Shown here: positions 3,264 to 18,008 of the stretch, piece by piece
Position numbering within the stretch: position 1 is the stretch's first letter
How the letters are laid out: each line of letters starts with the position of its first letter
Source of the DNA: Candidatus Saccharimonadota bacterium
Lineage (GTDB): Bacteria; Patescibacteriota; Saccharimonadia; Saccharimonadales; SLHW01
Direction of reading: 5' to 3'
DNA: 64,000 nt
NCBI GenBank assembly: GCA_050486305.1
Contig: JBJHDA010000002.1
Location: 10,659-74,658 of the forward strand
Position numbers and translations under genes: made by a program
Notes under the pieces: generated by a model
What the model was told of the DNA's origin: nothing
Database searches by the model: none
What the model saw: only the letters and a program-made list of their open reading frames with translations

Positions 3264-5186
3264 TTATACACCTGGTGACAGCCGATTATTTAAGTCAACG
3301 GTACCCTGTGTTCCCTGCATTTCGCCAGTTTGTTCTATTTGTCTTATTTGCTCAGGGTTTGTCGTGATAAGTCCGGTTTCTGTTGGGCTAGCTACAATCT
3401 GAATGTGCACGTGATTTGAGCCAGCGAAAAAGAGGCCCTGCCCAACCGGGAACTGACTGAGGCGCTTTTTCTCTTCACTGGTGAGCTTGAATACATCAGA
3501 TAACACATCGACAGCAGATGCCGATTGCTTAAGCAGAACCTGCATGGACGCATTTGCAACGATTGCTCTTCCCATACGAGACCCCATAAAATCTTCCACA
3601 TCCTGAGTAATAGTGGTGATGCCAAGGTTATATTTTCGGGCGCGCTTGGCAAGGCTAAAGAGGAAGTTTGCAGAATCTTCATATTTCATGAGTTGCCACG
3701 CCTCATCAACTACGAGCATGCGCCTCTTTTTATCAACCTTGGTTTTGTTCCATATAAAGTTTAGGACGATATACATGGCAACTGGCCGCAACTCATCCTC
3801 AAGATCGCGAATATTAAACACAACCATCGGATTATTTATGTTTACGTTGGATTGCTGGGAGAAAATGCCAGCAAAAGTACCAGTGGTGTATTTGCGAAGC
3901 CGTTGGGCAAGCTGAGGACCGAATCCCCCCATGTGTAATAGGGTGTCGTATAGGTCATTGATTGTCGGCGGGGTGGATTTATGGGTAAGCGGATCGTTTG
4001 TGATGCCTGCCTTGGAATATGTCTCAATAAGAGCTGCATCAAGGTCAGCTTCTTCTGCTGGTGTGAGCGCTGGCACGGTCGTGTTGCTTCCGCCACTCAT
4101 CTGAGCTTGTGCGCCGCCCATCATAAGCCGAAGCAGCCCGTGCAGGGTAATAAGGTTACTGCGTAGTGCGTCATCAGCCTCTTCGGTGTCGACCACCTCA
4201 GGTAAATCAAAAGGATTAATGCGCGTTGCTGAATTCAAGCTCAGGTGTACGTAGGCGCCACCGACTGCTTCTGCCATACGTTGATATTCATTTTCTGGGT
4301 CTATGATAAATACCTCAGTGCCTAGCATCATGCTGCGCAGCGCTTCAAGCTTCACAGTGAATGATTTACCAGCACCAGACTTGGCAAATACAACAGAGTT
4401 ACCGTTTTCGAGTGAGAAGCGGTCAAATATAACCAAGCCAGAGTTATGCATATTTATCCCATATAAAATGCCGTTTTCTTGCGTGAGGTCTGCAGACGTG
4501 AATGGAAAGCTTGTAGATAGTGCGCCAGTACTAAAGTTTCGCCGAATTTGCAGCTTGTCAGTAAATTGAGGTACGGTGCTATTTAGGCCTTGTTCTTGTT
4601 GTGAGGTTGCCGGCTTGGAGTAGACGAGCTGCTGGCCGAGCATAGACTCTACCTTGTGTGACACATATTCGAGCTCATCAAGCGATGAGCCATAAATCGT
4701 GAAGTAAAGGCCAAAGCGGAAAAAGCGTTCTTCTCCGACCTGCAGTTTGTCTCGCATTTCTTCTGCGTCAAGAATGGCCGCCTGCTTGCCCGGATCCCTT
4801 ACTCGGCCCTTTTCTGCTTCTATTTGGATGCCCGCCTCGAGCTGGCCGACTTTTTTACGAAGGCTCTCTAGCACTACCTGGCTTTCAACCGGGTAGATGA
4901 ACATAGACATATCCATAACCTCATCAAGGTTTATCATGCTGCTGAGCCAGCCCGTGTATATTTGCCTCGGATAGCCGTATATGTAATACGTTCTCGCATA
5001 CCGTGTGCCAATTTGGAAGTGGGTAGCGCCGAACTCTATGGAGCTTGGCGCGATGAAATCGCGTAAGGCTGTGACGCCTTTTTGAAAAGCTGCGTTGACT
5101 TCTGCTTCTTCCTTCAGTCTCTGCTGTTGAGCGAGCGCTACTGGATCTGCCTGCTGGGCTGGTTGCTTCTTTTTCCGTAAACCCAT
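3264..5186 (-). CDS. virB4: VirB4/TrbE/PrgJ-family T4SS ATPase, C-terminal (ATPase) portion of a split gene
   Basis: Walker A is GAGKS in VFAKSGAGKSFTVK. Walker B is LVVDEAWQL. Other conserved VirB4 blocks are YIYGYPRQIYTGWLS and NLGITTITQDVEDF. Start ATG overlaps the stop of the upstream ORF (TAATG). Confidence 0.85.
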   Translation of the reverse strand: MGLRKKKQPAQQADPVALAQQQRLKEEAEVNAAFQKGVTALRDFIAPSSIEFGATHFQIGTRYARTYYIYGYPRQIYTGWLSSMINLDEVMDMSMFIYPVESQVVLESLRKKVGQLEAGIQIEAEKGRVRDPGKQAAILDAEEMRDKLQVGEERFFRFGLYFTIYGSSLDELEYVSHKVESMLGQQLVYSKPATSQQEQGLNSTVPQFTDKLQIRRNFSTGALSTSFPFTSADLTQENGILYGINMHNSGLVIFDRFSLENGNSVVFAKSGAGKSFTVKLEALRSMMLGTEVFIIDPENEYQRMAEAVGGAYVHLSLNSATRINPFDLPEVVDTEEADDALRSNLITLHGLLRLMMGGAQAQMSGGSNTTVPALTPAEEADLDAALIETYSKAGITNDPLTHKSTPPTINDLYDTLLHMGGFGPQLAQRLRKYTTGTFAGIFSQQSNVNINNPMVVFNIRDLEDELRPVAMYIVLNFIWNKTKVDKKRRMLVVDEAWQLMKYEDSANFLFSLAKRARKYNLGITTITQDVEDFMGSRMGRAIVANASMQVLLKQSASAVDVLSDVFKLTSEEKKRLSQFPVGQGLFFAGSNHVHIQIVASPTETGLITTNPEQIRQIEQTGEMQGTQGTVDLNNRLSPGV

Positions 5187-6167: not shown

Positions 6168-7382
6168 TTAATGAAGCGATACTATCACCTCGTCAGTCGA
6201 TGAACCGTCACCCGTTTTTTTGTTTGCTTGACGAGCAATCGTCTCAACGCTGAGATCATCGTTGTGTGCAAAGTTTAGTATATCAGCATTAGCGGATTGA
6301 TTTCCAGCTGTTTTATCTGTTGGAGCGTCTTTTTTGCTTTGTGTCTCTATGTTGTTTTGCGAGCTTTGCTCTGCCGTTTGTTCAGATAAGGGTTTAATTG
6401 TCTTAAGGTGGCTGTTCATCGGGTTAGGTTTTTTTTGGTTTTCATGAATTTTATCCAGTGCCGCTTGTTCTTCTGGAGTTAATTTGCTGTCAGATTTGGC
6501 CGGAGTGGGGCGTGCTGCTTGCCCTGGCGTCACAATAGGCGCTGCTTCAAATGTAGCGGTCCCGGGTGTCGTTGGGGCATGTGGCTGTCTCATGAACCAA
6601 TAGTCATTTTTTTGCTGCTGAGCTGGTTCGTCCGGTGTTGCTGTGGTAGCTTGTGATTGCTGAAGCTGCGAGACGATCTGCTGCTTGTGTTGCTGGGAAG
6701 ACTGCTCGATCATTTTCTCAAAATGTTGAGCGGTTGGGTTGTTCTGTTCATCATAAATATCATCATCAGGCTTTATGTCATATTCTGCTACCTGTTGAGG
6801 AGTAGAGGTGGGGTCTATCAGTCTATCTGACTGCCTGCTTGGGGTGAAGCTTTGGGAATTTAGGTTTACATTTACGTTTTTTACTGCCCAGCCACGGCTG
6901 TCAATCGTGTCAGCGAGTGCTCGAAGCCGACTTTTAACCTCGGTGTTGCTTAGTCCATCAGTATAGATTTTTTCTTCATGCTTTGGGACGGTTACCGTAA
7001 CAAGCTCTTTTATGCCGTCCTGGTCCCATATACGTCGCCTCGGGCGGAAGTAAAATCGGAGCTTTGCCATCATCCAAACTTCAGTCGGCTGATCTTTACT
7101 CCAGGGGAACGCCAATAAGCCAAAAAATAGCGTAGGAGGTAAGAAAACAACAAGGAGAAAAACTAACCCATTAATGACTGACCAGAATGAAAGATATCCT
7201 GTCACCATGGTAATGCAGGCAAAAATGAACTGCTTAAGTGTGAGGGGTCCGAAAAGCTTGTCTTCCGCCTCGATATCTTGAATTACTTTATACTGGCCCA
7301 TGATTAACCCAAGTATAAAATAGAAAGCAGAAAGTATAAAGCTTACGCTGCCCGATGTGTTCGTTTGGTAAAGCAAATTCAC
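6168..7382 (-). CDS. PrgI/VirB3-like T4SS membrane protein with ~270-aa Gln/Thr-rich disordered C-terminal tail
   Basis: N-terminal 2-3 TM helices carry the pattern FGPLTLKQFIF...KDQPTEVWMMAKLRFYFRPRRRIW, resembling the PrgI family (VirB3 analogue). It sits directly upstream of virB4, as in prgI-prgJ. Confidence 0.5.
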   Translation of the reverse strand: MNLLYQTNTSGSVSFILSAFYFILGLIMGQYKVIQDIEAEDKLFGPLTLKQFIFACITMVTGYLSFWSVINGLVFLLVVFLPPTLFFGLLAFPWSKDQPTEVWMMAKLRFYFRPRRRIWDQDGIKELVTVTVPKHEEKIYTDGLSNTEVKSRLRALADTIDSRGWAVKNVNVNLNSQSFTPSRQSDRLIDPTSTPQQVAEYDIKPDDDIYDEQNNPTAQHFEKMIEQSSQQHKQQIVSQLQQSQATTATPDEPAQQQKNDYWFMRQPHAPTTPGTATFEAAPIVTPGQAARPTPAKSDSKLTPEEQAALDKIHENQKKPNPMNSHLKTIKPLSEQTAEQSSQNNIETQSKKDAPTDKTAGNQSANADILNFAHNDDLSVETIARQANKKTGDGSSTDEVIVSLH

Positions 7383-8697: not shown

Positions 8698-10443
8698 TCA
8701 TAAGCTGCCACCTGTACTAGCAATTATCGAAGCCATTATTTTACCAACGGCAGTGGTGACCATTATTATCGGGAAAAACCACATCATAAGCCAAAAGGTC
8801 TTGTTCCATAGGTTCCATATACTGGTTCTTCCCGGGAATATCCAGGCCAGTATAGCCAATGGTGAAACCAACACAAGCAGCACGATAAGCGTGTGACGGA
8901 ACATAAGCAGTGCAAGAACAGCCAGGAGGGCTAGGGCAGCAACGCCAGCGAATCCTGCCAGCGTCGCGACTAGTCCTCCGCCCATTACTCCTTGTGCGGC
9001 TGCGATAGCTCCCCAGGCAACGAGACCTGATACGACGGCCTGTCCAGCAAAACTCTCTGGTGGACGCAAAACCTGCTCCAGTGTGGTGCCTGGCCCCACG
9101 TCAGGAAACGGGTACAATAATAAGTTGTGTATCCCGTAGCCTATGGCTTGTACAAAATCAACGATAAAAACAGTTATCTCAAACGATAAGGCGATGAATA
9201 TTGTAGCGACTACCATCCTTGGCAGCGCACTCTTGACCGTATAGGCGCTAATGAAGTCAAAGCCGAGGGCTGTACTTATAATCATGACTAACATTATCGG
9301 CACTAATAACAGGTATGCGATATTCCTCAGTATTGTCCACGAAGCGCGAAGCCCTTCGTGATCTTCAAAAAAACCAGGTTCAATTGCCAACAGGCTTGCC
9401 ATTCGTTCGTCTACATATCTCAGTGCGCCAGAGGCCATGGACAGCACTTGGCAAAACAGCCACGCCATGCCGCCAGCGTCCTCGCAGGTGGGGCCTCTGT
9501 CCTCATCCTCAATAGTGCCGCCAGGAGCTTCCGCGTCAGGGTTTAGTTCTTGCCAAGCGCGCACAGCCGTTAATGCTGCATCGGCGTGCCTATTCATCAA
9601 GCTCACAATACTTTCGCAGCTAAGCCTTGACCCAGCACTTCTGTCGTCTGCTGCCCTGGACCCCATACCGTAACCGACATGATGATTGCTGCTATCTACG
9701 ATAAATTTATTAGCAGGATCTGCAACCTCCGACCCGTCATTATTTATGATACGTACTGTTGCTCCGCCAGTCTGGTCCGCTCCATTGTTGCATTTTGCAA
9801 AAAAAGTATCCCGTGCAATAAAGTACTGAGCATATCCCGGCATGGTGGTGTTTGTGAAGCTTATTTCTGACCTTCGTTCCCTAAACATAGCAGCGATTAA
9901 ATCGCGGACACTGCTGTTGTTCCGGGTATTGCTGATGCCATCATTAAGCTTGTATTGTCCTGACCCTGGTTCAGTGGGGACGTACATTGCTGGCCACGAA
10001 TTACCTGTTCTGCCGCCAACAGTTTGTGGTTGGGTGAAGAAGTCTAGGATTCCGTCCCCATCACCACCGGGGCTGACCCCCGCGTATGTGAGAAGTGCCG
10101 CAGCACTACTATTACAATTGAGCGATCCGTTACCGCTACTAGACAAATGATTAGTACGATAAGAGCGACCGTCAAAGAAAATTTTTCCTTCTCGCAGCTC
10201 TGCAGTTGTCGGGTAGCTCCCAGCCGATTCACCTTTGACTGCTACTGTGCCCGCTCCCCCGTTTGTACACCAATACAAACCCCAATAGGCTTGATACGCC
10301 CTTACCATGCTAGTAGGGTGGTCGCTTCCTACGTTCTGTGGGCTGGGCCACGCATTGGCGGTGGTTGGAAGGAGGATCGAAACGGCTAATTGAAATAGTA
10401 ATAAGCCAAAAGCCGAGGCTATCCATAACCGCTTTATTTTCAT
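8698..10443 (-). CDS. VirB6/TrbL-like T4SS channel protein: signal peptide, large extracytoplasmic domain, C-terminal multi-pass TM bundle
   Basis: Signal peptide is MKIKRLWIASAFGLLLFQLAVSILLPTTANA. The C-terminal ~230 aa contain at least 5 hydrophobic helices (ILRNIAYLLLVPIMLVMIISTALG...AIAAAQGVMGGGLVATLAGFAGVAALALLAVLALLMF). Position relative to PrgI/VirB4 matches prgH-prgI-prgJ. Confidence 0.5.
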   Translation of the reverse strand: MKIKRLWIASAFGLLLFQLAVSILLPTTANAWPSPQNVGSDHPTSMVRAYQAYWGLYWCTNGGAGTVAVKGESAGSYPTTAELREGKIFFDGRSYRTNHLSSSGNGSLNCNSSAAALLTYAGVSPGGDGDGILDFFTQPQTVGGRTGNSWPAMYVPTEPGSGQYKLNDGISNTRNNSSVRDLIAAMFRERRSEISFTNTTMPGYAQYFIARDTFFAKCNNGADQTGGATVRIINNDGSEVADPANKFIVDSSNHHVGYGMGSRAADDRSAGSRLSCESIVSLMNRHADAALTAVRAWQELNPDAEAPGGTIEDEDRGPTCEDAGGMAWLFCQVLSMASGALRYVDERMASLLAIEPGFFEDHEGLRASWTILRNIAYLLLVPIMLVMIISTALGFDFISAYTVKSALPRMVVATIFIALSFEITVFIVDFVQAIGYGIHNLLLYPFPDVGPGTTLEQVLRPPESFAGQAVVSGLVAWGAIAAAQGVMGGGLVATLAGFAGVAALALLAVLALLMFRHTLIVLLVLVSPLAILAWIFPGRTSIWNLWNKTFWLMMWFFPIIMVTTAVGKIMASIIASTGGSL

Positions 10444-10567
10444 GAGTAATACTATAGCACCATCTTATTGTGAGTGTAATAGATTGACCCCATAAACTTT
10501 ATAAAGCTTACGTTTCTGCACTGCTCTATTTATCTTATCGCCTGCGTGCACCAAAAAGCATAGTCGT

Positions 10568-11089
10568 CTAAAAGGTTTCGTCGAAAATCAAGTCGTCTAA
10601 CTGGTTTGTAAAGTGTATATTGTCAGGTAATTGGTGCATATCCTGTGAGGTTCCTTGCCTGCAGGTTCCTTCCAACTCTTCAAAAAGTTGCCTAAGCTCG
10701 CCTTCTTCTGCTATGTCATCGTATAGAAAGCTACGTAAAGTTCCATCCAGGCTGTGTACTGTTCCGGTGTCTGAATCTTCCTCCCAATAATAGACATCGC
10801 CGTCAATTACCATGGTGTGGGTTGTCCAAGTATCAGATGATTCCGTGGTGTCGGTATAGTTTTCAATCATTCTGAGCGCGCCAGAGTCAAAGTAATAAAC
10901 CGTACTGTCCAGAGGTGTTTCATTATTATTCGCTTGAGTTAGTGTGCAGGTTGCTGCAGTTTCTCCATTAAGAGCTCGGCTAAATACGCTGTAGTCGTCC
11001 GTTGTGCTCCTTGATATAAATGAGGTTAACGCAACGACCGCAACAATAAGAAGTATTCCGGCTAGAATCACTACTAGTCTTTTTTTCAT
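10568..11089 (-). CDS. Hypothetical N-terminally anchored/exported protein
   Basis: ORF track. Begins MKKRLVVILAGILLIVAVVAL; the remainder is Thr/Asp-rich. Confidence 0.4.
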   Translation of the reverse strand: MKKRLVVILAGILLIVAVVALTSFISRSTTDDYSVFSRALNGETAATCTLTQANNNETPLDSTVYYFDSGALRMIENYTDTTESSDTWTTHTMVIDGDVYYWEEDSDTGTVHSLDGTLRSFLYDDIAEEGELRQLFEELEGTCRQGTSQDMHQLPDNIHFTNQLDDLIFDETF

Positions 11090-11236
11090 CTTATTGTCCC
11101 TAAACGGGCTAACATTAGCATTATGTACACTATGTTCACATAAAACCGCTCAGTTAACAAGAAGCTTATTGGTTAAATTCGGACGAGTTTTATACCAGAA
11201 GGTCTTACTAAAAGGTCTACAATGGGCATGATGAAA

Positions 11237-12604
11237 CTACAGGCTTTCGGTGCCGAGGTTCTGCTCATCACCTCTTTTTATCCAGATTTCTTGATCTGGA
11301 GCAAAGCTAGACATGTTTTCTGCTGAGGTGGTTGTTTTTTCAAACTCTAGTACATGTATGAACGCGGTATCATTGTCTGGGTGATTAATGGGCGACCAGT
11401 CAAGATTCATCTTAACCTGTATGCTCATATGGTTTTCGTCGGATTGCCAAGCGTCTACAATTTCCCAACCGTGCTTTATGAAGTAAGGCTCTTCGCCTCT
11501 TTCAGCGCGCCCTTCTCGATGCCCTCTCGTGTACTCGGTGTTTGTTTGTATTAACCGTCTGGCATTTTCGATAGTACGTTCAGCGCCTGGCGTGTTCCCA
11601 AACATAGCCTCAAGACATGTGCTTTCTATGTGAAAGTTATGCGAGTTTAATATGCATGACCTGTTTTGCAAATACTGATAGAGTAGTTCTTCTGGGTTGT
11701 CAGCCGTCATCAGTACGGGCTCATTCTCTTGGTTGATTACCTCTGGGCTGCGAAGCGAAGGGTATTGCGACTCACTTATGGGACCTGAGTGATCTTCAGG
11801 GCTATCGGCTTCTGTGTCATCGATGACTATGTCATCTGTTTCTTCTGTAGAAGATGGCCTATCCTCTTTGTCTAATGGAGGCTGGTCAGTGCGATCAAGC
11901 ATATCTTGCTCTCTATCTGCCAAATTTTGATCAACTTCTTCTTCAGGAGGAGTCGCTTCGGCATCTGAGGGTTCTGATGCGCTTCCTCCGAACGCAATTG
12001 CCGCTGCTGCTGCGACTCCCGCCACACCGGCTGCTAGTCCGCCATACCCGAGCAACTTCTTCCGTTTTTTGACGCTGGTGCTTTCTGTCGGCACTGCTTC
12101 ATCGTTTGGCTGCGCTTCAAGAGTTGTGCTCGGAGCTGTTGCTGCAAGCTGCTGATCTTGACCCTGTTGGTCTTGCGTTTGTTCTTGCGTTTGTTCTTGC
12201 GTTGCATGTTCCCCGGTAGTCGAATCAGAGGCATTCTCCCTTTGACCCACTGAAGAACTAGCGTCTTCGGGGGTATTTTCCGGTAATGGCGGGGGTGTAT
12301 TCGCAAATTCCTCTTCGTCTGCAGCGCCCAGCACGTCGCCAGGACTACTTGGAGCAAGCCTGACAGATTCTTCGGCCCACTGCTTCCATGGGTCGCTGAA
12401 CTCATCGCCTGAGGGTGAAGTGTTTGGCGTATTTTCAGGTATTTGTTCGTCTGTTGGATTTTGCGGTTGCGCCTCAACGACAGTGTCTCCAGGCGCTGGG
12501 AGTTGTTCGGATGTTTCTGGGCCATACACTTCTGTTGGCTTTTCCGTTGGGTTAGCCTCTTGACCCTCTTGTACTGGTGACAAATTTTCTTCAGGAGTAC
12601 TCAT
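11237..12604 (-). CDS. Hypothetical acidic Pro/Glu/Gln-rich protein with central TM helix
   Basis: ORF track lists 11237..12661. The Met at 12604 (MSTPEENLSP) has an AAGGA Shine-Dalgarno 9 nt upstream and is the likelier start. TM helix is LLGYGGLAAGVAGVAAAAAIAFGG. An internal 12-bp tandem repeat encodes QEQTQEQTQDQ. Confidence 0.45.
   Translation of the reverse strand: MSTPEENLSPVQEGQEANPTEKPTEVYGPETSEQLPAPGDTVVEAQPQNPTDEQIPENTPNTSPSGDEFSDPWKQWAEESVRLAPSSPGDVLGAADEEEFANTPPPLPENTPEDASSSVGQRENASDSTTGEHATQEQTQEQTQDQQGQDQQLAATAPSTTLEAQPNDEAVPTESTSVKKRKKLLGYGGLAAGVAGVAAAAAIAFGGSASEPSDAEATPPEEEVDQNLADREQDMLDRTDQPPLDKEDRPSSTEETDDIVIDDTEADSPEDHSGPISESQYPSLRSPEVINQENEPVLMTADNPEELLYQYLQNRSCILNSHNFHIESTCLEAMFGNTPGAERTIENARRLIQTNTEYTRGHREGRAERGEEPYFIKHGWEIVDAWQSDENHMSIQVKMNLDWSPINHPDNDTAFIHVLEFEKTTTSAENMSSFAPDQEIWIKRGDEQNLGTESL
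12171..12206. repeat. 12-bp tandem repeat (tcttgcgtttgt x ~3) inside the 11237..12604 CDS
   Basis: Seen directly. Encodes QEQT repeats on the minus strand. Confidence 0.7.
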
Positions 12605-12719
12605 AGATAATATTTTCCTTGCTATGTAAATACTATAACATATAAAAAAAGAAATGTCCATATAGTTTACTTTTTTGCAAGATTAAATTAATGTTAAGAT
12701 TGATATAAGAAATATAAAA

Positions 12720-13325
12720 ATGAAAGCACTGAAACTCCTTAAGCACCCTACACTAGTAATATTATGTCTTCTTCTGCTGCTCACTGTTGTGGTTATTGCT
12801 TCATCTCTACCAGCTGGTGTATCTGCTCAATCCGGAAGGAGCAGCGACAGAGAAATAGCTGCGGCTGTCTGCCAAGATAATCCTGATGCGCAAGTCTCTC
12901 CCGTTACGTGGGAAGAGTGTATAGAAAGGACCGTACGAAGCCTGAATAGACAGTGTGATTTTAGTCCGCATTCTGAGGCTTGGGCGAGCTGTAGGCAGCA
13001 GTTTTTGGACTCTAATGTCGCTTCATCAGGGTCTGGGATTTCAACCACCCAGCTGAACGCTGATTGTTCAGAGCAACCGTTAACTCCTGACAACTGCGGC
13101 ATAATCGGCTACATTAGAATAATAACGGACGGTCTGACGGTTATTGTGGGTATAGTGGTTGTGATGATGCTCATTGTCGGAGGCATACAATATTCATCTG
13201 CAGGCAGCAACCCTCAGGCGGTAACAGCGGCTAAAAAGAGAATTTCTCAGGCGTTGTTTGCTCTTGTGATATACATATTCTTATTTGCATTCTTGCAATG
13301 GATTGTGCCAGGAGGGGTGTTTTAA
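12720..13325 (+). CDS. VirB2/TrbC-like T4SS pilin paralogue 1 (long Cys-containing variable ectodomain)
   Basis: N-terminal signal/TM. C-terminal block LTVIVGIVVVMMLIVGGIQYSSAGSNPQAVTAAKKRISQALFALVIYIF matches the family motif h-IMII-GG-x-Y-x-SGGD-x-AK-x-TILYA-IGLV shared by all seven genes. Confidence 0.5.
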   Translation: MKALKLLKHPTLVILCLLLLLTVVVIASSLPAGVSAQSGRSSDREIAAAVCQDNPDAQVSPVTWEECIERTVRSLNRQCDFSPHSEAWASCRQQFLDSNVASSGSGISTTQLNADCSEQPLTPDNCGIIGYIRIITDGLTVIVGIVVVMMLIVGGIQYSSAGSNPQAVTAAKKRISQALFALVIYIFLFAFLQWIVPGGVF

Positions 13326-13328
13326 GCA

Positions 13329-13769
13329 ATGATTCAAAGGCTCTTTATATTCAGCATCATCAGCACTTCCTTTATTGTTGCGGCAGTATTCTTTATGCCG
13401 CAGCAACAAGTATCAGCTTGCGACGACCGTGGGACATTCCTGTCTTTTCCCAGATGGTACGAATATCTGGAGGTTGACAGCGAATGCAATGTGAGTGCTA
13501 TTCGGTATGATGGTGGTTCAGGAGAGATTAATCTGGGAGCAACTGTCGGCGCTATACTTCTTGCTGTGACGGAGATACTCTTAAGAGTGTCCGGGATAGT
13601 CGCCGTAGGCTTTATTGTTTATGGAGGCGTTCAGTTCACGATGAGCCAAGGAGCTCCTGACAGGCTGCAGGCATCTAAACAGATTATTATGAATGGCATC
13701 ATCGGTTTGGTTATTGCAGTTTTGGCTGTGGCTATCGTTAACCTAGTGAGCAATATAGTGGTAGGGTGA
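13329..13769 (+). CDS. VirB2/TrbC-like T4SS pilin paralogue 2
   Basis: C-terminal block IVAVGFIVYGGVQFTMSQGAPDRLQASKQIIMNGIIGLVIAVLAV. It starts 4 nt after the previous gene. Confidence 0.5.
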   Translation: MIQRLFIFSIISTSFIVAAVFFMPQQQVSACDDRGTFLSFPRWYEYLEVDSECNVSAIRYDGGSGEINLGATVGAILLAVTEILLRVSGIVAVGFIVYGGVQFTMSQGAPDRLQASKQIIMNGIIGLVIAVLAVAIVNLVSNIVVG

Positions 13770-13773
13770 GATT

Positions 13774-14061
13774 ATGGAACTTCGAAAATTATTCGCTAAC
13801 ATAGAAGGAACGTTCGATGGTGTTAATATCCCAGAGGCTGGTACTGACGGCTCCATTGAGGCTGCGGTTGGCTTTTTCTTTATCCTAGCCGGGATTATAG
13901 CGGTTATCATGATAATTCTTGGCGGCTACTGGTATGTATTGTCTGGCGGTGATCCGCAAAAGACCAAAAAAGCCAAAGACACGATTCTGTATGCCGTAAT
14001 TGGACTAGTCATATCTATCAGTGCCTGGATAATCGTAGGGTTTGTCTTAGCGAGCACGTAA
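13774..14061 (+). CDS. VirB2/TrbC-like T4SS pilin paralogue 3 (no cleavable signal peptide)
   Basis: C-terminal block IIAVIMIILGGYWYVLSGGDPQKTKKAKDTILYAVIGLVISI. Confidence 0.55.
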   Translation: MELRKLFANIEGTFDGVNIPEAGTDGSIEAAVGFFFILAGIIAVIMIILGGYWYVLSGGDPQKTKKAKDTILYAVIGLVISISAWIIVGFVLAST

Positions 14062-14450
14062 TGATGAAAAAACTCCTATTAACATTCACTGCCCTGCTTG
14101 CGCCAGTTTTATTTTTTGCTACGGCGGCAGCGAATGTAAATCCACTGGAAGACGTCTGTCGTGAAGCTCCGAATTCAGCAGTCTGCATTGAAGAGCGAGC
14201 TACCCGAGGGCAAGACAGTACGGATAACCGTGTTGTTAGTTTTCTAGGAGAAGTGGTGAGAATCATGCTGTTTGCACTTGGGGCCATAGCGGTAGTTGCG
14301 GTGATGGTAGGCGCGCTGATGTATGTATTGTCCGGTGGCGACCCAGCAAAAACACAAAAAGCAAAGACTACTATTTTGTATGCACTCATCGGCGTAGTGA
14401 TAGCCACCGTTGCTCAATTGATAATACTGTTCGTTTTAGATAGACTATAG
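14061..14450 (+). CDS. VirB2/TrbC-like T4SS pilin paralogue 4
   Basis: Signal peptide, then AIAVVAVMVGALMYVLSGGDPAKTQKAKTTILYALIGVVIATVAQLI. Start overlaps the previous stop. Confidence 0.55.
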   Translation: MMKKLLLTFTALLAPVLFFATAAANVNPLEDVCREAPNSAVCIEERATRGQDSTDNRVVSFLGEVVRIMLFALGAIAVVAVMVGALMYVLSGGDPAKTQKAKTTILYALIGVVIATVAQLIILFVLDRL

Positions 14451-14487
14451 ATAAAATAATAAGAATCACAGGAGCAAAACACACAAA

Positions 14488-14898
14488 ATGGAAAACATAA
14501 TCAAGCAAACCATACACAGTAAGCCGATCCAGCTTATTCTGCTCGGGGCTATTGTTGCCGCGTTGCTGGTAGTACTCATGCCTGAGGTAGGCTTTACGCA
14601 AGCGAGTGAAGTTCGCCAAGGCATAGGCGCGACTGGTGTAGATACGACCGAGGGTGAGGCTAGATCGGGCATTAACTCGCTGATTCAGACGACCATAAAC
14701 ATCATTTCTTGGATTGTAGGTATCATATCGGTCATCATGATCATCATCGGCGGACTTAAGTACATAATGTCTACCGGAGATTCGCAAAAAGTAGATTCGG
14801 CAAAGAATACCATTCTCTACGCCGTTATTGGTCTTGTTATTGTGGCGTTTGCACAGATAATCGTATTGTTTGTTCTCGACACAACCACAGGTAACTAA
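14488..14898 (+). CDS. VirB2/TrbC-like T4SS pilin paralogue 5
   Basis: C-terminal block IISVIMIIIGGLKYIMSTGDSQKVDSAKNTILYAVIGLVIVAFAQII. Confidence 0.55.
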   Translation: MENIIKQTIHSKPIQLILLGAIVAALLVVLMPEVGFTQASEVRQGIGATGVDTTEGEARSGINSLIQTTINIISWIVGIISVIMIIIGGLKYIMSTGDSQKVDSAKNTILYAVIGLVIVAFAQIIVLFVLDTTTGN

Positions 14899-14978
14899 CG
14901 ATGATAGTTCGTCTACAACTTCAGTCATAGCGCTAGGTCTAGTTGACGCAGAAAAGCCATAAGTGTATAACTTAAGCA

Positions 14979-15398
14979 ATGAAAGGAACGAATAAAATGA
15001 AAAAGAATCTAACAACACTACTCGTAAGCGCCTTGTTTGTGCTCGGCCTGGCAGCGCCACTAGCGCTTGTGTCAGCTACACCCGCCTCTGCACAGAGTGG
15101 AATCGCAGAGAACTTAGATGCGGGGGCACAACGTACGGATCCTGATGCTGACCCGGATGCTGAGGAGCGAGTGAATCAGATTATCGTGACAGTGATAAAT
15201 ATTTTTTCACTTGTTGTGGGTGTGATATCCGTCATCATGATTATCATCGGTGGCTTGAAGTACATCACCTCTGGCGGTGACTCAGGCAACGTAACGAGCG
15301 CTAAGAACACTATTCTTTACGCAATCATCGGTCTTGTTGTGGTGGCGCTAGCTCAGATAATCGTACGGTTTGTCATAGAGCGCGTTACAAACGCATAG
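14979..15398 (+). CDS. VirB2/TrbC-like T4SS pilin paralogue 6
   Basis: Signal peptide (possible start at the internal Met at 14997, MKKNLTT). C-terminal block VISVIMIIIGGLKYITSGGDSGNVTSAKNTILYAIIGLVVVALAQII. The 3' 130 bp are identical to paralogue 7. Confidence 0.55.
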   Translation: MKGTNKMKKNLTTLLVSALFVLGLAAPLALVSATPASAQSGIAENLDAGAQRTDPDADPDAEERVNQIIVTVINIFSLVVGVISVIMIIIGGLKYITSGGDSGNVTSAKNTILYAIIGLVVVALAQIIVRFVIERVTNA

Positions 15399-15427
15399 CC
15401 TCGAAAAGCTAACAGCACAAAAAAATT

Positions 15428-15458
15428 GCCACCGCGGAAACGCGGTGGCTTTCTTTTT
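15428..15458 (+). terminator. Rho-independent terminator after pilin paralogue 6
   Basis: gccaccgcg-gaaa-cgcggtggc is a perfect 9-bp stem. It is followed by tttcttttt. Confidence 0.7.
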
Positions 15459-15473
15459 GTCAGGCTTTGTTAC

Positions 15474-15502
15474 TTGCATAAGTTACATATAAGTGGTATA
15501 AT
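15474..15502 (+). promoter_or_regulatory. Sigma-70-type promoter for pilin paralogue 7
   Basis: TTGCAT (15474-15479), 17-nt spacer, TATAAT (15497-15502). GAGGA ribosome-binding site lies ~12 nt before the ATG at 15543. Confidence 0.55.
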
Positions 15503-15542
15503 GTATAATGCGCATAATTGCGTGTGAGGAGCTATAAGCTGC

Positions 15543-15935
15543 ATGAAAAACACACTACTTTTTATCACGGCTGTTGCTGGACTATTGCTGACGCTTCTAG
15601 CAGTACCTGGTGATACAGTTGCTGCACAGAGCAATATAACAGAGGGCCTCACTCGAGGAGCTGAATTGACAGATCCGGATGCCGAAACTGTAAGTCCTGA
15701 GGATCAAGTAAACGCAATTATTTCTACAATCATTAATCTGTTTTCGCTTGTGGTCGGAGTTGTATCCGTCATCATGATTATCATCGGTGGCTTGAAGTAC
15801 ATCACCTCTGGCGGTGACTCAGGCAACGTAACGAGCGCTAAGAACACTATTCTTTACGCAATCATCGGTCTTGTTGTGGTGGCGCTAGCTCAAGTGATTG
15901 TTCGATTCGTACTTGCCCGTATTACGGGTGCTTAG
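15543..15935 (+). CDS. VirB2/TrbC-like T4SS pilin paralogue 7
   Basis: Signal peptide. C-terminal block VVSVIMIIIGGLKYITSGGDSGNVTSAKNTILYAIIGLVVVALAQVI. Confidence 0.55.
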   Translation: MKNTLLFITAVAGLLLTLLAVPGDTVAAQSNITEGLTRGAELTDPDAETVSPEDQVNAIISTIINLFSLVVGVVSVIMIIIGGLKYITSGGDSGNVTSAKNTILYAIIGLVVVALAQVIVRFVLARITGA

Positions 15936-15963
15936 TAGTAGTCGTTCCTGTATAAATATAAAT

Positions 15964-16002
15964 ACACCCTCTGCAGCGATGCATAAGAGGGTGTATTTTG
16001 TT
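15964..16002. terminator. Hairpin terminator between convergent pilin-7 and hsp20 genes
   Basis: acaccctct-N13-agagggtgt is a 9-bp stem. It is followed by attttgtt on plus and by an AT-rich run on minus. Confidence 0.5.
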
Positions 16003-16015
16003 GCTAGAGGTTTGC

Positions 16016-16495
16016 TTAGTTAATTTGGATTTTCTTAACCGTGTCTTGTTTTACCTTTGTAAAACTGATGGTAAGAACCCCATCCTTTAAGACAGCTTCT
16101 ACTTCTTCTTCCTTTACAGGAACTGGCAAAGCAATACTTCTGCTGAATTCTCCCCAGTAGCACTCCTGCACGAAGTAATTTTCTACGTCCTCTTCTGTGC
16201 CAGCGGAAAGTGTGCCGCGAATGCTGACCGTATTGTCGGCAATACTGACATCAAGCTCTTGCTTGTTTACACCGGCAGTCCGTGCCTTAACTATGAGCTT
16301 TTCCTTCGTTTCATAAACGTCAACAGCGAGTTGGCCTGGAACAGCTTCTTCTTCATCCCAGTCATCTGTTGCTTCAGTCGTTTGTTGGTCCTGACCTGTT
16401 TCGTCGTCGGCCGGTGCAAGTTCTTCATCGTCAAGAAAGGCGGCAGTTAGCTCATCTTCCATCAATAAATCCTCGTCGCGATTTTTGCGCGCCAT
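16016..16495 (-). CDS. Hsp20/alpha-crystallin family small heat-shock protein
   Basis: Alpha-crystallin domain blocks: VKARTAGVNKQELDVSIADNTVSIRG and GEFSRSIALPVPVKEEEVEAVLKDGVLTISFTK. The acidic N-terminal extension is atypical. Confidence 0.75.
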   Translation of the reverse strand: MARKNRDEDLLMEDELTAAFLDDEELAPADDETGQDQQTTEATDDWDEEEAVPGQLAVDVYETKEKLIVKARTAGVNKQELDVSIADNTVSIRGTLSAGTEEDVENYFVQECYWGEFSRSIALPVPVKEEEVEAVLKDGVLTISFTKVKQDTVKKIQIN

Positions 16496-16624
16496 ACGTA
16501 TTACCCTCCGATTGTAAAAAATTTATTTGTCGCTTTTGCAATTTTTGTTAGTGGTTAGTATAGCCTATCCTATAAGATATGAGCAACAGTTTGCTAACAT
16601 ATTTACAACAGTACTAATAACAAC

Positions 16625-17302
16625 ATGATTTTACTGGATAAGCTTATATCAATCATTGCGCCCACATTATGTGTACGCTGCAGCAAAGAAGGATCAGTTG
16701 TTTGTGCATGGTGCTCTCCAGAGCTGATTCCGCTTATAGCAGAGCGGTGCATAAGCTGTAATGCTTTATCCGAAAACTCCCGGACCTGCAAGGACTGCCG
16801 TCGGAAACACAAGTTGCCGAAGCATGTCTGGACACGTTCAGTTTATGAGGATTTTTCGAAGCTATTACTCGGGAGGCTTAAGTTTCAGCGATCTGGTGCA
16901 ACAGCAAAGGTACTGGCATCTCTCATGGCAGAACCCCTGCCCTATTTGTCTGACGACACGCTAATTACTCATGTGCCGACTTCTCCTGCCCGTATTCGGC
17001 AGCGTGGCTACGATCAATCAAGGCTGCTTGCGAAGGAGCTAGCAAAGCAAAATAACGTCCGCTATACGGCGATGCTGAGCAGGTTATCGAATGTTCGGCA
17101 GGTTGGATCATCACGTATTGAAAGAAAAAAGCAACTACAGGGTGCATTTTACTTAAAGCGGGTTTCTGTACCGAAAAAGACACCGATTTTATTAGTTGAT
17201 GATATTTATACAACAGGAGGCACATTGTCTGCGGCGACAGTGACGCTAAGACAGGCTGGGTACAAAAATGTGAATGCAGTCGTTTTTGCGAAGGTGCTGT
17301 AG
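16625..17302 (+). CDS. comFC: ComFC-family phosphoribosyltransferase-domain protein (competence protein F)
   Basis: N-terminal double CxxC zinc ribbons (CVRC...CAWC...CISC...CKDC). C-terminal PRTase motif is LLVDDIYTTGGTLSAA. Confidence 0.75.
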   Translation: MILLDKLISIIAPTLCVRCSKEGSVVCAWCSPELIPLIAERCISCNALSENSRTCKDCRRKHKLPKHVWTRSVYEDFSKLLLGRLKFQRSGATAKVLASLMAEPLPYLSDDTLITHVPTSPARIRQRGYDQSRLLAKELAKQNNVRYTAMLSRLSNVRQVGSSRIERKKQLQGAFYLKRVSVPKKTPILLVDDIYTTGGTLSAATVTLRQAGYKNVNAVVFAKVL

Positions 17303-17540
17303 TGCGCCCGCTCGAGCCGACTTTACTTTCTAGCCCGACATATCGGTATCGGGCTTTTGCCCTACTTCGCTAATGCTTCAGAGGGCATCCTTCATAGGCA
17401 ACGAAGTTAGCAACGATGAATGGCGGAAGGGGTGGGATGATTTCATGCTTTGACAGCATGTTCTCGGAGTAAACTCCTGCGAGCAAGCTGTCACGCCCGA
17501 ACCGCATTGGGTTCGACTCCGCGCTTTCTGGCAAGAAAGC

Positions 17541-17563
17541 TAAACCCGAGCACGAGGCTCGGG
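17541..17563 (-). terminator. Hairpin terminator downstream of tRNA-Ser(UGA); copy A of a duplicated ~60-nt element
   Basis: Read on the minus strand: cccgagc-ctcgt-gctcggg followed by ttt. A second hairpin gctttct-tgcc-agaaagc lies at 17523-17540. A near-identical element lies at 17813-17853. Confidence 0.5.
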
Positions 17564-17573
17564 CTTACCTTCC

Positions 17574-17663
17574 TGGCGGAAGGGGTGGGATTCGAACCCA
17601 CGGTACCGTTTCCGGCACGCTTGTTTTCAAGACAAGTACCATAAACCACTCGGTCACCCTTCC
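17574..17663 (-). tRNA. tRNA-Ser (anticodon UGA), type II with long variable arm, CCA encoded
   Basis: Reverse complement is GGAAGGGTGACCGAGTGG...CTTGT-CTTGAAA-ACAAG...GGTTCGAATCCCACCCCTTCCGCCA. Anticodon loop CTTGAAA gives anticodon TGA. Confidence 0.8.
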
Positions 17664-17812: not shown

Positions 17813-17882
17813 GCTTTCTGACGAGAAAGCTAAACCCGAGCACAAGGCTCGGGTCTATATCTTCCTGGCGGAGAGAGAGGGA
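17813..17882 (-). repeat. Duplicate of the tRNA-Ser downstream terminator element (copy B) fused to a 17-nt 3' fragment of a tRNA-Ser(GCU)-like gene (tRNA remnant)
   Basis: 17813-17853 is ~95% identical to 17523-17563. 17866-17882 (tggcggagagagaggga) is identical to the 3' end of the intact tRNA-Ser(GCU) at 18038-18054, then diverges with no T-arm. Confidence 0.6.
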
Positions 17883-18008
17883 TGACATCGTTGCCACTGC
17901 ACTGATGCTCGGAGCAAGCTCCTGTGCGTCAGTTTGTGTCACCGAACGCCTCGCTACTATTTTGCTTGCGCAAAATATACTCGGGTTCAAATCCCTCAAC
18001 AAGACAAA

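What the first reader, a model, noticed from the sequence alone, without database searches (positions are those of the whole stretch)
15226..15892. 130-bp perfect direct repeat between pilin paralogues 6 and 7 indicates recent gene conversion
Positions 15226-15355 and 15763-15892 are identical over 130 bp, encoding the C-terminal module. The flanking 5' halves of the two genes are only ~70% similar and the 3' ends diverge immediately after the repeat. Such mosaic identity is the footprint of segmental gene conversion or recombination within the array, the mechanism expected for a variable surface-protein repertoire.
Basis: seen in the sequence. Interest (0 to 1): 0.55.

Follow-up and report, generated by a model that had tools for sequence, protein, structure and literature searches.

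The report
Gene conversion between tandem pilin genes
Two neighbouring secretion-system pilin genes of a Saccharibacteria (TM7) bacterium share a perfectly identical 130-base stretch because one copy recently overwrote the other by recombination, a well-known process that also recurs in related species and keeps the conserved core of the two proteins the same.

Summary
Window 15226-15355 and 15763-15892 are identical over exactly 130 nt, the longest repeat in the 64-kb window.

- **What the genes are:** genes 6 and 7 of seven tandem VirB2-like pilin genes (Pfam PF18895). They lie beside a Gram-positive-type type IV secretion system in a Saccharibacteria chromosome.
- **Not protein-level selection:** the tract has 0 synonymous differences over 33 synonymous sites. 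Its flanks are saturated (pS 0.85). Other species with 93-95% identical protein in this segment differ at most synonymous codons.
- **Tree conflict:** three syntenic relatives have the same seven-gene array. In the 42-codon tract, informative sites group the paralogues by genome (74, against 2 by gene class). In the flanks they group by gene class.
- **Recurrence:** independent exact tracts of 62-226 nt occur between the last two pilin genes in 6 of 75 species.

This is interlocus gene conversion, that is, concerted evolution. It is confined to the conserved helix-turn-helix core. It homogenises that core rather than diversifying it, and both genes are complete, so I found no silent-cassette variation system. 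The closest precedent is concerted evolution of the Bartonella Trw trwL arrays. It is a new member of a known kind, of modest interest.

The parts
12720..13325 (+). Pilin gene 1 of the seven-gene VirB2-like (T4SS_pilin) array, 201 aa
   Evidence: ORF; PF18895 27.3 bits (gathering score 26.6)
13329..13769 (+). Pilin gene 2, 146 aa
   Evidence: PF18895 32.4 bits
13774..14061 (+). Pilin gene 3, 95 aa
   Evidence: PF18895 54.6 bits
14061..14450 (+). Pilin gene 4, 129 aa
   Evidence: PF18895 31.9 bits
14488..14898 (+). Pilin gene 5, 136 aa; not involved in the exchange (pS 0.64 to genes 6 and 7 in the tract)
   Evidence: PF18895 50.0 bits
14997..15398 (+). Pilin gene 6, 133 aa (an alternative upstream ATG lies at 14979)
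   Evidence: PF18895 50.9 bits. P0009, 133 aa, is on the same 120,797-bp NCBI contig as gene 7. AGGA lies 8 nt before 14997 (read).
15226..15355 (+). Conversion tract, copy in gene 6. It encodes ...SVIMIIIGGLKYITSGGDSGNVTSAKNTILYAIIGLVVVALA..., that is, the end of helix 1, the turn and most of helix 2.
15366..15382 (+). Tail patch of gene 6 (CGG TTT GTC ATA GAG CG; R-F-V-I-E-R) that carries the codons typical of gene 7 in the relatives
   Evidence: few sites, weak
15428..15459 (+). Intrinsic-terminator-like hairpin plus T-run after gene 6
   Evidence: 9-bp stem, 8 G-C pairs; inverted repeat I5
15482..15509 (+). Sigma-70-like promoter (GTTACA-16-TATAAT) ahead of gene 7; GAGGAG lies at 15527-15532
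   Evidence: 10 of 12 matches; sequence
15543..15935 (+). Pilin gene 7, 130 aa
   Evidence: PF18895 57.3 bits; P0001 100% identical; AF2 model
15763..15892 (+). Conversion tract, copy in gene 7 (residues about 75-116)
15903..15919 (+). Tail patch of gene 7 (CGA TTC GTA CTT GCC CG; R-F-V-L-A-R) that carries gene-6-class-like codons
   Evidence: weak
15964..15999 (+). Hairpin (ACACCCTCT / AGAGGGTGT, 13-nt loop) followed by ATTTT after gene 7
   Evidence: Read directly from the sequence; the scan did not report it because the loop exceeds 8 nt
6168..7382 (-). PrgI/VirB3-like gene of the divergently transcribed T4SS cluster
   Evidence: PF12666 42.4 bits
3264..5186 (-). VirB4-like ATPase (TraG P-loop / AAA_10) of the T4SS cluster
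   Evidence: PF19044 98.1 bits

Best explanation
Genes 6 and 7 are old paralogues in a conserved seven-gene array of VirB2-like pilins. The array belongs to the Gram-positive-type type IV secretion system of a Saccharibacteria (TM7) bacterium.

In this lineage a 130-bp patch of one copy was recently copied over the other by homologous recombination, that is, interlocus gene conversion between direct repeats 537 bp apart. The patch covers the end of helix 1, the turn and most of helix 2.

The event is the latest of many. In this clade the same 42-codon segment evolves in concert, while the N-terminal half, the 21 codons upstream and the 14 codons downstream keep their gene-specific, orthologous sequences.

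Shown here:
- the exact identity of the two copies;
- the absence of synonymous change inside the tract against saturated flanks;
- the two break points;
- the switch of tree signal between tract and flanks;
- the recurrence in other species, with lineage-specific synonymous codons shared by both copies.

Inferred:
- the exchange runs through the cell's RecA-type homologous recombination, either within one chromosome or between sister chromosomes;
- each conversion restores perfect identity and so favours the next one in the same island;
- selection on the gene-specific flanking residues, or simply the drop in identity there, limits the tract.

The net effect is to keep the buried core of the two pilins identical. 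It does not create variants.
For: - **Identity:** 130/130 at offset 537. It is the longest repeat in the window. Permutation gave 0 of 200,000 shuffles reaching it.
- **Synonymous sites:** the tract has Sd 0 of 33.0 synonymous sites. The flanking 35 conserved codons have pS 0.85 and pN 0.22. Orthologue comparisons within the tract give pS 0.49-0.65.
- **Controls:** L064 and L011 have 95% and 93% identical protein in this segment, yet only 8 of 39 and 15 of 38 same-amino-acid codons are identical.
- **Synteny:** relatives L081, L084 and L086 have the same seven pilin genes; all are followed by HSP20, and L081 and L086 also by a phosphoribosyltransferase gene. The 6/7 duplication therefore predates these species.
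- **Tree signal, summed over six species pairs:**

| Region | By genome | By gene class | Cross |
|---|---|---|---|
| Tract | 74 | 2 | 1 |
| 5' core flank | 6 | 37 | 7 |
| N-terminal part | 43 | 102 | 25 |

- **Within-genome tract identity:** window 126/126, L086 124/126, L081 109/126, L084 106/126. Between genomes it is 0.82 for the same class and 0.81 for different classes.
- **Other tracts:** L025 226 nt, L008 210, L086 98+26, L030 95, L032 89, L081 62.
- **Specificity to the last two genes:** 6 of 75 last-two pairs share 60 nt or more. None of 1,169 other within-array pairs does, and the between-genome maximum is 29 nt.
- **Reproducibility:** the L081 tract is identical in three assemblies. 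The L086 tract is reproduced in three assemblies.
- **Recombination capacity:** homologous recombination operates in Saccharibacteria, since targeted insertion by natural transformation with 1-kb homology arms works (PMC10633639).
Against: - No reads or long reads were available, so the presence of two perfectly identical copies rests on one assembly (the exact protein has one member on one contig). A de Bruijn assembler could have erased a few real differences.
- No conspecific genome exists in the searched collections, so polymorphic break points within the species could not be examined.
- The donor copy cannot be assigned. In the half of the tract that is unconverted in L081, the window differs from r6 at 12 of 60 nt and from r7 at 15 of 60 (counted by hand).
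- RecA dependence is inferred; no recA lies in the window.
- The 3' tail shows an apparently swapped patch that a single non-reciprocal event does not explain.
Confidence: 0.88

Rival explanations
1. Assembly artefact: the two copies are similar but not identical, or the segment was duplicated or collapsed by the assembler. On this reading the perfect identity is produced by bubble popping or repeat resolution in a short-read metagenome assembly.
For: The window comes from a single assembled contig, and no second record of this species exists (one member, one contig; not on record; no exact hit in metagenome contigs). A length of 130 bp is close to common k-mer and read lengths.
Against: - An assembler can only merge sequences that are already nearly identical. 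The flanks are saturated at synonymous sites, so a sharp island of near-identity must be real.
- Both unique flanks of both copies are present in the expected syntenic order.
- Equivalent tracts appear in other species assembled by different pipelines. They are reproduced base for base in three independent assemblies for L081/L082/L083 and for L086/L087/L088.
Confidence: 0.05
2. No DNA exchange: strong purifying selection on the protein, together with codon preference, keeps the two copies identical.
For: The 42-residue segment is the most conserved part of the family. It is nearly invariant across 46 homologues and across species.
Against: - Protein-level selection leaves synonymous sites free. 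Here 0 of 33 synonymous sites differ, while orthologues encoding the same peptide differ at pS 0.49-0.65.
- Other genomes with 93-95% identical peptides share only 21-39% of same-amino-acid codons.
- The between-genome longest exact match is at most 29 nt.
Confidence: 0.01
3. Programmed pilin variation: the array is a cassette system in which conversion shuffles segments among expressed and silent copies to vary a surface antigen or host-binding face, in the manner of Neisseria pilE/pilS. This is the framing the first reader hinted at.
For: - Tandem divergent pilin genes of an essential, surface-exposed apparatus of an epibiont are a plausible setting (PMC12102498, PMC10633639).
- Strain-level replacement of genes 1-2 and a repeat-number change in gene 1 occur in relatives.
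- A possibly swapped patch lies in the tails of genes 6 and 7.
Against: - The exchanged tract is the invariant core, so conversion changes no amino acid apart from possibly position 74 (I/V).
- Both genes are full length with signal peptides and start codons. Gene 7 has its own promoter-like site and hairpins on both sides.
- No G-quadruplex motif lies in 11001-17000.
- The variable N-terminal parts keep clean orthology across four species.
Confidence: 0.04
4. The identity reflects a functional nucleotide element inside both genes, either an RNA structure or regulatory site, or a diversity-generating-retroelement template/variable repeat pair.
For: The 130-nt tract folds better than shuffled sequence (z = -3.0). 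DGRs are common in CPR bacteria and act on C-terminal segments of about 100-150 bp (own knowledge).
Against: - Homologous tracts in 150 genes from other species have a mean z of -0.4. The other fully converted tracts (L008, L025) have z above 0.
- No Rfam family matches there.
- The sequence is not conserved at the nucleotide level between species.
- No reverse-transcriptase domain was seen among the 40 ORFs scanned.
- Mismatches between the two copies in relatives fall at third codon positions and involve all base types; they are not adenine-specific.
Confidence: 0.01
5. Same pattern by a different route: RecA-independent template switching (copy choice) between the two nearby direct repeats during replication, or ectopic integration of the cell's own or a sibling's DNA taken up by natural transformation.
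For: The copies are only 537 bp apart. Saccharibacteria are naturally competent (PMC10633639). A ComFC-like gene lies next to the array.
Against: Sequence alone cannot separate these routes from RecA-mediated intrachromosomal conversion. Patch-like tracts of 60-226 nt with two break points fit all three.
Confidence: 0.15

Closest known systems
Bartonella Trw type IV secretion system: tandem trwL (VirB2 homologue) arrays under 'diversifying selection and concerted evolution' (Nystedt et al. 2008, Mol Biol Evol 25:287; cited in PMC3483213 and PMC2610397)
   Same: - Tandem arrays of VirB2-family pilin genes inside a T4SS locus that lacks an obvious coupling-protein or relaxase function.
- The paralogues are co-oriented and probably co-expressed.
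- Recombination between copies gives concerted evolution.
   Different: - Bartonella is a diderm alphaproteobacterium with an R388-derived system, and whole genes or gene blocks are amplified there.
- Here the host is a monoderm Saccharibacterium with an FATA-like T4SS.
- The seven paralogues here are ancient and mostly about 20-30% identical.
- Conversion here is confined to one 42-codon island in one gene pair.
- I could not read the 2008 paper itself, so the details of its tracts are from memory.
VirB2-like pilin arrays of Patescibacteria (Quinonero-Coronel et al. 2025, PMC12102498; Wang et al. 2023, PMC10633639; review PMC12857230)
   Same: This is the same system. Those papers report arrays of 2-11 PF18895/PF04956 pilin genes near virB4, abundant in Saccharimonadia, and essential in Southlakia epibionticum. 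The window's array lies next to VirB4-like and PrgI-like genes.
   Different: Those papers describe the array members as highly divergent (mean 25%, maximum 54% amino-acid identity). In the passages I retrieved by term search they do not mention recombination between members, and no paper in the library combines 'gene conversion', 'Patescibacteria' and 'pilin'. Here genes 6 and 7 are 68% identical and share a nucleotide-identical core.
Neisseria gonorrhoeae pilE/pilS pilin antigenic variation by gene conversion (own knowledge)
   Same: Non-reciprocal, RecA-type transfer of short patches between pilin gene copies in a naturally competent bacterium.
   Different: - Neisseria uses type IV pilin, not VirB2-like pilin.
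- It has one expressed locus plus promoterless, truncated silent copies.
- The exchanged parts there are the variable regions.
- A G4 element initiates the exchange there.
- None of these features is met here.
Concerted evolution of duplicated bacterial genes, for example tufA/tufB in Salmonella (own knowledge) and the 26 long-lasting cases in prokaryotes (Wang and Chen 2018, PMC6053082)
   Same: - Paralogues are more alike within a genome than orthologues are between genomes.
- The pattern recurs over long times.
- It affects genes whose products work in the same complex.
   Different: Those cases usually homogenise whole genes. Here only an internal segment is homogenised, while both ends stay gene-specific, giving a stable mosaic.

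Membership tests
VirB2-like T4SS pilin (Pfam PF18895 T4SS_pilin / PF04956 TrbC) | Match to the family profile above the curated threshold | tested here: met
   all seven ORFs score 27.3-57.3 bits against PF18895 (gathering score 26.6). PF04956 stays just below its threshold; the best is gene 5 at 27.5 against 27.9.
VirB2-like T4SS pilin (Pfam PF18895 T4SS_pilin / PF04956 TrbC) | Small protein with an N-terminal signal peptide followed by a hairpin of two hydrophobic helices | tested here: met
   the AF2 model of gene 7 (mean pLDDT 79) has helices at residues 2-20, 32-43, 52-88 and 93-128. The A-x-A-type sites ASA|Q and VAA|Q were read from the sequence; no signal-peptide predictor was available.
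VirB2-like T4SS pilin (Pfam PF18895 T4SS_pilin / PF04956 TrbC) | Structural similarity to solved conjugative pilins (TraA, VirB2) | tested here: inconclusive
VirB2-like T4SS pilin (Pfam PF18895 T4SS_pilin / PF04956 TrbC) | Encoded next to core T4SS genes (VirB4, VirB3/PrgI, VirB6) | tested here: met
   a TraG P-loop/AAA_10 ATPase at 3264-5186 and a PrgI-family protein at 6168-7382 lie on the opposite strand, transcribed divergently from the array. Synteny is conserved in relatives.
VirB2-like T4SS pilin (Pfam PF18895 T4SS_pilin / PF04956 TrbC) | Polymerises into an extracellular pilus | not testable with these tools
   No pilus has yet been shown even for the cultured relatives (PMC12857230).
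Interlocus gene conversion / concerted evolution | Paralogues within a genome are more similar than orthologues between genomes in the segment, with lineage-specific shared variants | tested here: met
   in the tract, 74 sites group by genome, 2 by class and 1 cross. Within-genome identity is 0.84-1.00, against 0.81-0.82 between genomes.
Interlocus gene conversion / concerted evolution | Flanking sequence keeps the orthologous (pre-duplication) tree, giving two break points | tested here: met
   the 5' flank and the N-terminal part group by gene class (37 against 6, and 102 against 43). The 3' flank is divergent (55% identity), though its signal is mixed in the window.
Interlocus gene conversion / concerted evolution | Synonymous divergence drops in the tract relative to the flanks and to protein-matched controls | tested here: met
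   pS is 0 inside the tract against 0.85 in the flanks. Searches give the control genomes.
Interlocus gene conversion / concerted evolution | Non-reciprocal transfer by the homologous recombination machinery | not testable with these tools
   Only the end product is visible. Direction and enzymology are inferred.
Interlocus gene conversion / concerted evolution | Both copies physically present and identical in the organism | not testable with these tools
   No reads are available. Indirect support comes from replicate assemblies of relatives.
Cassette-type pilin antigenic variation (pilE/pilS-like) | One expression locus plus silent, truncated or promoterless donor copies | tested here: not met
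   all seven ORFs are full length. Genes 6 and 7 each have a start codon and a signal peptide. Gene 7 has its own promoter-like site, and hairpins follow both genes.
Cassette-type pilin antigenic variation (pilE/pilS-like) | The exchanged segments are the variable, exposed parts | tested here: not met
   the tract is the most conserved segment. The variable N-terminal parts keep orthology.
Cassette-type pilin antigenic variation (pilE/pilS-like) | A cis-acting initiator such as a G-quadruplex near the expressed gene | tested here: not met
   no G3+N1-7 x4 motif on either strand of 11001-17000.
Diversity-generating retroelement (TR/VR pair) | A nearby reverse transcriptase, with differences between the repeats restricted to adenines of the template | tested here: not met
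   no RT domain in the 40 ORFs scanned; mismatches in relatives are third-position changes of all base types.

The most novel reading that the evidence does not exclude
The 42-codon helix-turn-helix core of pilins 6 and 7 may be a long-lived 'conversion island' that selection tolerates or favours. On this reading the two pilins must share an identical buried core to co-polymerise into one heteropolymeric T4SS filament. Their N-terminal regions and extreme tails are kept distinct; these would be exposed if the filament resembles F and T pili. Together with the strain-level replacement of genes 1-2 seen in relatives, the essential Saccharibacteria pilin array would then be a modular apparatus. 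It would have a recombinationally homogenised scaffold and separately evolving host-facing surfaces.
Probability: 0.2. Interest if true: 0.55.

Novelty: new member of a known kind. Interest (0 to 1): 0.33.

Why it matters
- **Biological context:** the VirB2-like pilin array is part of the T4SS that is essential for the epibiotic growth of the one Saccharibacterium tested (Southlakia epibionticum). The role of that T4SS is unknown (PMC10633639, PMC11665869).
- **Functional hint:** two of the seven pilins are held to an identical core by repeated recombination, while their ends stay gene-specific. This suggests that these two subunits work in the same assembly.
- **Practical use:** the tract marks the segment that cannot be used to tell the genes apart in read mapping, primers or Tn-seq.
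- **Warning for comparative work:** trees or identity statistics for these arrays will mislead if this segment is included.
- **General point:** beyond that, it is a textbook case of concerted evolution.

Tried and rejected
- **Conspecific strains for break-point comparison: none found.**
  - the exact gene 7 protein has one member on one NCBI contig, and the next relative is 76% identical.
  - the protein is not on record for a contig look-up.
  - a 38-mer from the tract has no exact match in the metagenome contigs.
  - the best species representative is 73% identical.
- **RNA element:** there is no Rfam hit in the array. The low folding energy of the tract is not shared by homologous tracts, so I rejected this reading.
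- **DGR and G4-initiated variation:** both rejected.
- **Replication origin at the divergent promoter:** there is no DnaA-box enrichment (10 matches against 13 expected). The GC-skew minimum near 10-12 kb is confounded with gene strand, so I left it open.
- **Donor direction:** the window tract is 80% identical to r6 and 75% to r7 in the informative half (hand count), so this is undecided.
- **recA in the window:** not found.
Full report
**Observation**

Window 15226-15355 and 15763-15892 are identical at 130 of 130 positions. The exact run at offset 537 is bounded by mismatches on both sides. It is the longest repeat in the 64-kb window.

Genes 6 and 7 align over 375 nt with 112 mismatches. 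None of 200,000 column shuffles produced a run as long (maximum 45). Using only the conserved core, the maximum was 72.

Outside the tract the genes are far apart. Identity is 46% in the N-terminal part, 65% in the 21 codons just upstream and 55% downstream.

**What the genes are**

Seven co-oriented ORFs from 12720 to 15935 all match Pfam PF18895 (T4SS_pilin) above its gathering score. They give sub-threshold matches to PF04956 (TrbC/VirB2).

A cluster on the opposite strand, transcribed divergently from the array, includes a PrgI-family protein and a TraG-P-loop/AAA_10 (VirB4-like) ATPase. The rest of the window holds housekeeping genes: Val- and Arg-tRNA synthetases, GroEL, DnaG, RpoD and PolA. 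The locus is therefore chromosomal.

Every related locus found belongs to Saccharibacteria/Saccharimonadales MAGs, apart from a few unclassified or apparently mis-binned records.

This is the VirB2-like pilin array described for Patescibacteria:
- arrays of 2-11 genes, with mean identity 25% and maximum 54% (PMC12102498);
- essential in Southlakia epibionticum (PMC10633639);
- reviewed in PMC12857230.

Genes 6 and 7 are 68% identical in protein, above that reported maximum.

An AlphaFold2 model of gene 7 has mean pLDDT 79. It shows a signal-peptide helix, a short helix, then a hairpin of helices at residues 52-88 and 93-128. The tract covers residues about 75-116, which is the last part of helix 1, the turn and most of helix 2.

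Gene 6 is followed by a strong terminator-like hairpin. Gene 7 has its own promoter-like site (10 of 12 matches) and is followed by a second hairpin (sequence). Both genes are therefore complete, and gene 7 appears to be separately expressed.

**Is it selection on the protein?**

No. In the 42 whole codons of the tract, 0 of 33 synonymous sites differ. In the 35 conserved codons that flank it, pS is 0.85 (saturated) and pN is 0.22.

Orthologues encoding almost the same peptide differ at pS 0.49-0.65 in the tract.

I compared the last two pilin genes in 75 Saccharibacteria species:
- Most pairs are 56-80% identical in nucleotides over this segment.
- This holds even where the peptides are 93-95% identical. 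In L064, 8 of 39 same-amino-acid codons are identical; in L011, 15 of 38.

Between genomes, the longest exact match among genes of this subfamily has a median of 10 nt and a maximum of 29.

**Tree discordance**

The closest relative is L081 (gene 7 is 76% identical). Two further relatives are L084 and L086. All carry the same seven pilin genes followed by HSP20, and L081 and L086 also carry the phosphoribosyltransferase gene. The 6/7 duplication is therefore older than these species.

Informative sites, summed over the six species pairs:

| Region | By genome | By gene class | Cross |
|---|---|---|---|
| Tract | 74 | 2 | 1 |
| 5' core flank | 6 | 37 | 7 |
| N-terminal part | 43 | 102 | 25 |

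Each relative has its own shared synonymous codons in the tract:

| Genome | Within-genome tract identity | Longest exact runs |
|---|---|---|
| Window | 126/126 | 130 nt |
| L086 | 124/126 | 98 + 26 nt |
| L081 | 109/126 | 62 nt |
| L084 | 106/126 | 23 nt |

The borders in L086 fall within one codon of those in the window.

Between genomes, same-class identity (0.82) equals different-class identity (0.81). The gene-specific signal has therefore been erased in this segment across the clade. This is long-term concerted evolution of one internal segment, and the window shows its most recent event.

**Recurrence elsewhere**

Independent exact tracts occur between the last two pilin genes of more distant species: L025 226 nt, L008 210, L030 95 and L032 89.

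Six of 75 last-two pairs share 60 nt or more. None of 1,169 other within-array pairs does.

**Artefact?**

I could not check reads. However, an assembler can only merge what is already nearly identical, and the flanks here are saturated.

Base-for-base reproduction in relatives also argues against an artefact. The L081 tract appears identically in three separate assemblies, and so does the L086 tract. I put the artefact reading at about 5%. At most it would turn 'near-identical' into 'identical'.

**Other rivals**

- **RNA element.** The tract folds well (z = -3.0). But 150 homologous tracts average z = -0.4, and the other fully converted tracts have z above 0. There is no Rfam hit and no cross-species nucleotide conservation.
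- **DGR.** No reverse transcriptase was found among the 40 ORFs scanned. Mismatches in relatives are third-position changes of all base types.
- **Cassette-type antigenic variation.** There are no silent or truncated copies and no G4 motif, and the exchanged part is the invariant core.

**Mechanism**

Shown: a two-break-point patch of identity between direct repeats 537 bp apart, repeated over evolutionary time in the same island.

Inferred: transfer by homologous recombination. Saccharibacteria recombine incoming DNA through 1-kb homology arms (PMC10633639).

Also inferred is a self-reinforcing cycle, in which each event restores the perfect identity that the next one needs. The borders would be set by the drop in identity, by selection on the gene-specific flanking residues, or by both.

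Template switching and transformation-mediated ectopic exchange cannot be separated from this route by sequence alone.

**Comparison with what is known**

- The nearest precedent is the Bartonella Trw system. Its tandem trwL (VirB2) genes show diversifying selection and concerted evolution (Nystedt et al. 2008, cited).
- General prokaryotic concerted evolution is well documented (PMC6053082).
- In the searched library no paper links gene conversion with Patescibacteria pilins.

The finding is therefore a new member of a known kind. It is solidly supported and of modest interest.

The gene-conversion reading is right. The 'variable repertoire' framing is not supported for genes 6 and 7. The signs of strain-level variability that I saw in relatives lie at genes 1-2.

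Noticed in passing
L081 3572-4200 versus L082 538-1170 (closest relative species): Two assemblies of the same species are virtually identical (0-3 mismatches per 100 nt) across pilin genes 3-7 and HSP20. They differ by 17-41 mismatches per 100 nt over the 3' part of pilin gene 1 and most of gene 2, and do not align at all further upstream. Gene 1 is 166 aa against 238 aa, and gene 2 is 158 aa against 175 aa. This looks like strain-level replacement of the first two pilin genes.
   Followed up: partly
L086 516-728 (pilin gene 1 of GCA_003563795.1) versus L088: A perfect 111-nt in-frame tandem duplication lies inside pilin gene 1 (1.9 copies, 100% matches). It is absent from another assembly of the same species (221 aa against 184 aa), while the remaining 7.2 kb is 99.8% identical.
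   Followed up: partly
window 15366-15382 and 15903-15919: Just after the tract, gene 6 carries the codons R-F-V-I-E-R (CGG TTT GTC ATA GAG CG), which are typical of gene 7 in three relatives. Gene 7 carries L-A codons resembling gene 6 of the relatives. 'Cross' informative sites number 3, 5 and 3 in species pairs that include the window, against 1, 1 and 0 in pairs without it. This is an apparently swapped mini-patch that one non-reciprocal event cannot explain. It rests on few sites.
   Followed up: partly
L008 5426-5884 and 5992-6435: In this more distant species the last two pilin genes share an identical 29-residue signal peptide as well as a 210-nt identical C-terminal tract. Only the middle of the two proteins, the N-terminal region of the mature pilin, differs.
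   Followed up: no
window 16016-17302: Directly after the array lie an HSP20 gene (16016-16495, minus strand) and a gene with a double zinc ribbon plus a phosphoribosyltransferase domain (16625-17302, ComFC-like competence protein). HSP20 follows the array in all three relatives; the phosphoribosyltransferase gene is annotated in L081 and L086 only.
   Followed up: partly
window 17523-17591 and 17813-17883: Two copies of a 41-nt repeat (93% identical) are each followed by a related 26-nt repeat. The first set abuts and overlaps the 3' end of tRNA-Ser(tga) at 17574-17663. The second set lies where no tRNA was called, so it may be a remnant of a partial tRNA-Ser duplication.
   Followed up: no
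window about 10000-12720: The cumulative GC skew reaches its minimum here. Gene orientation also switches from the minus strand (T4SS cluster) to the plus strand (pilin array and most genes beyond). T4SS loci near the replication origin are reported for some Patescibacteria (PMC12102498). I found no DnaA-box enrichment and no dnaA among the ORFs scanned.
   Followed up: partly
window 15226-15355: As RNA, the window's tract has an unusually stable predicted fold (-41.1 kcal/mol, z = -3.0). Homologous tracts in other species do not share this, so it is probably a quirk of this sequence.
   Followed up: yes
window 63248-63313 and 63767-63814: Imperfect direct repeats rich in GCC/GAG/CCA (Pro/Glu/Ala-type coding repeats) lie near the end of the window.
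   Followed up: no
window 11237-12661 (minus strand): A 474-aa ORF immediately upstream of the array, transcribed divergently, has long acidic, Pro/Glu/Gln/Thr-rich low-complexity regions with a 12-nt repeat (12167-12203) and no Pfam match. A gene with no Pfam hit on record lies at the same position, on the opposite strand, in the relatives L081 and L084.
   Followed up: no
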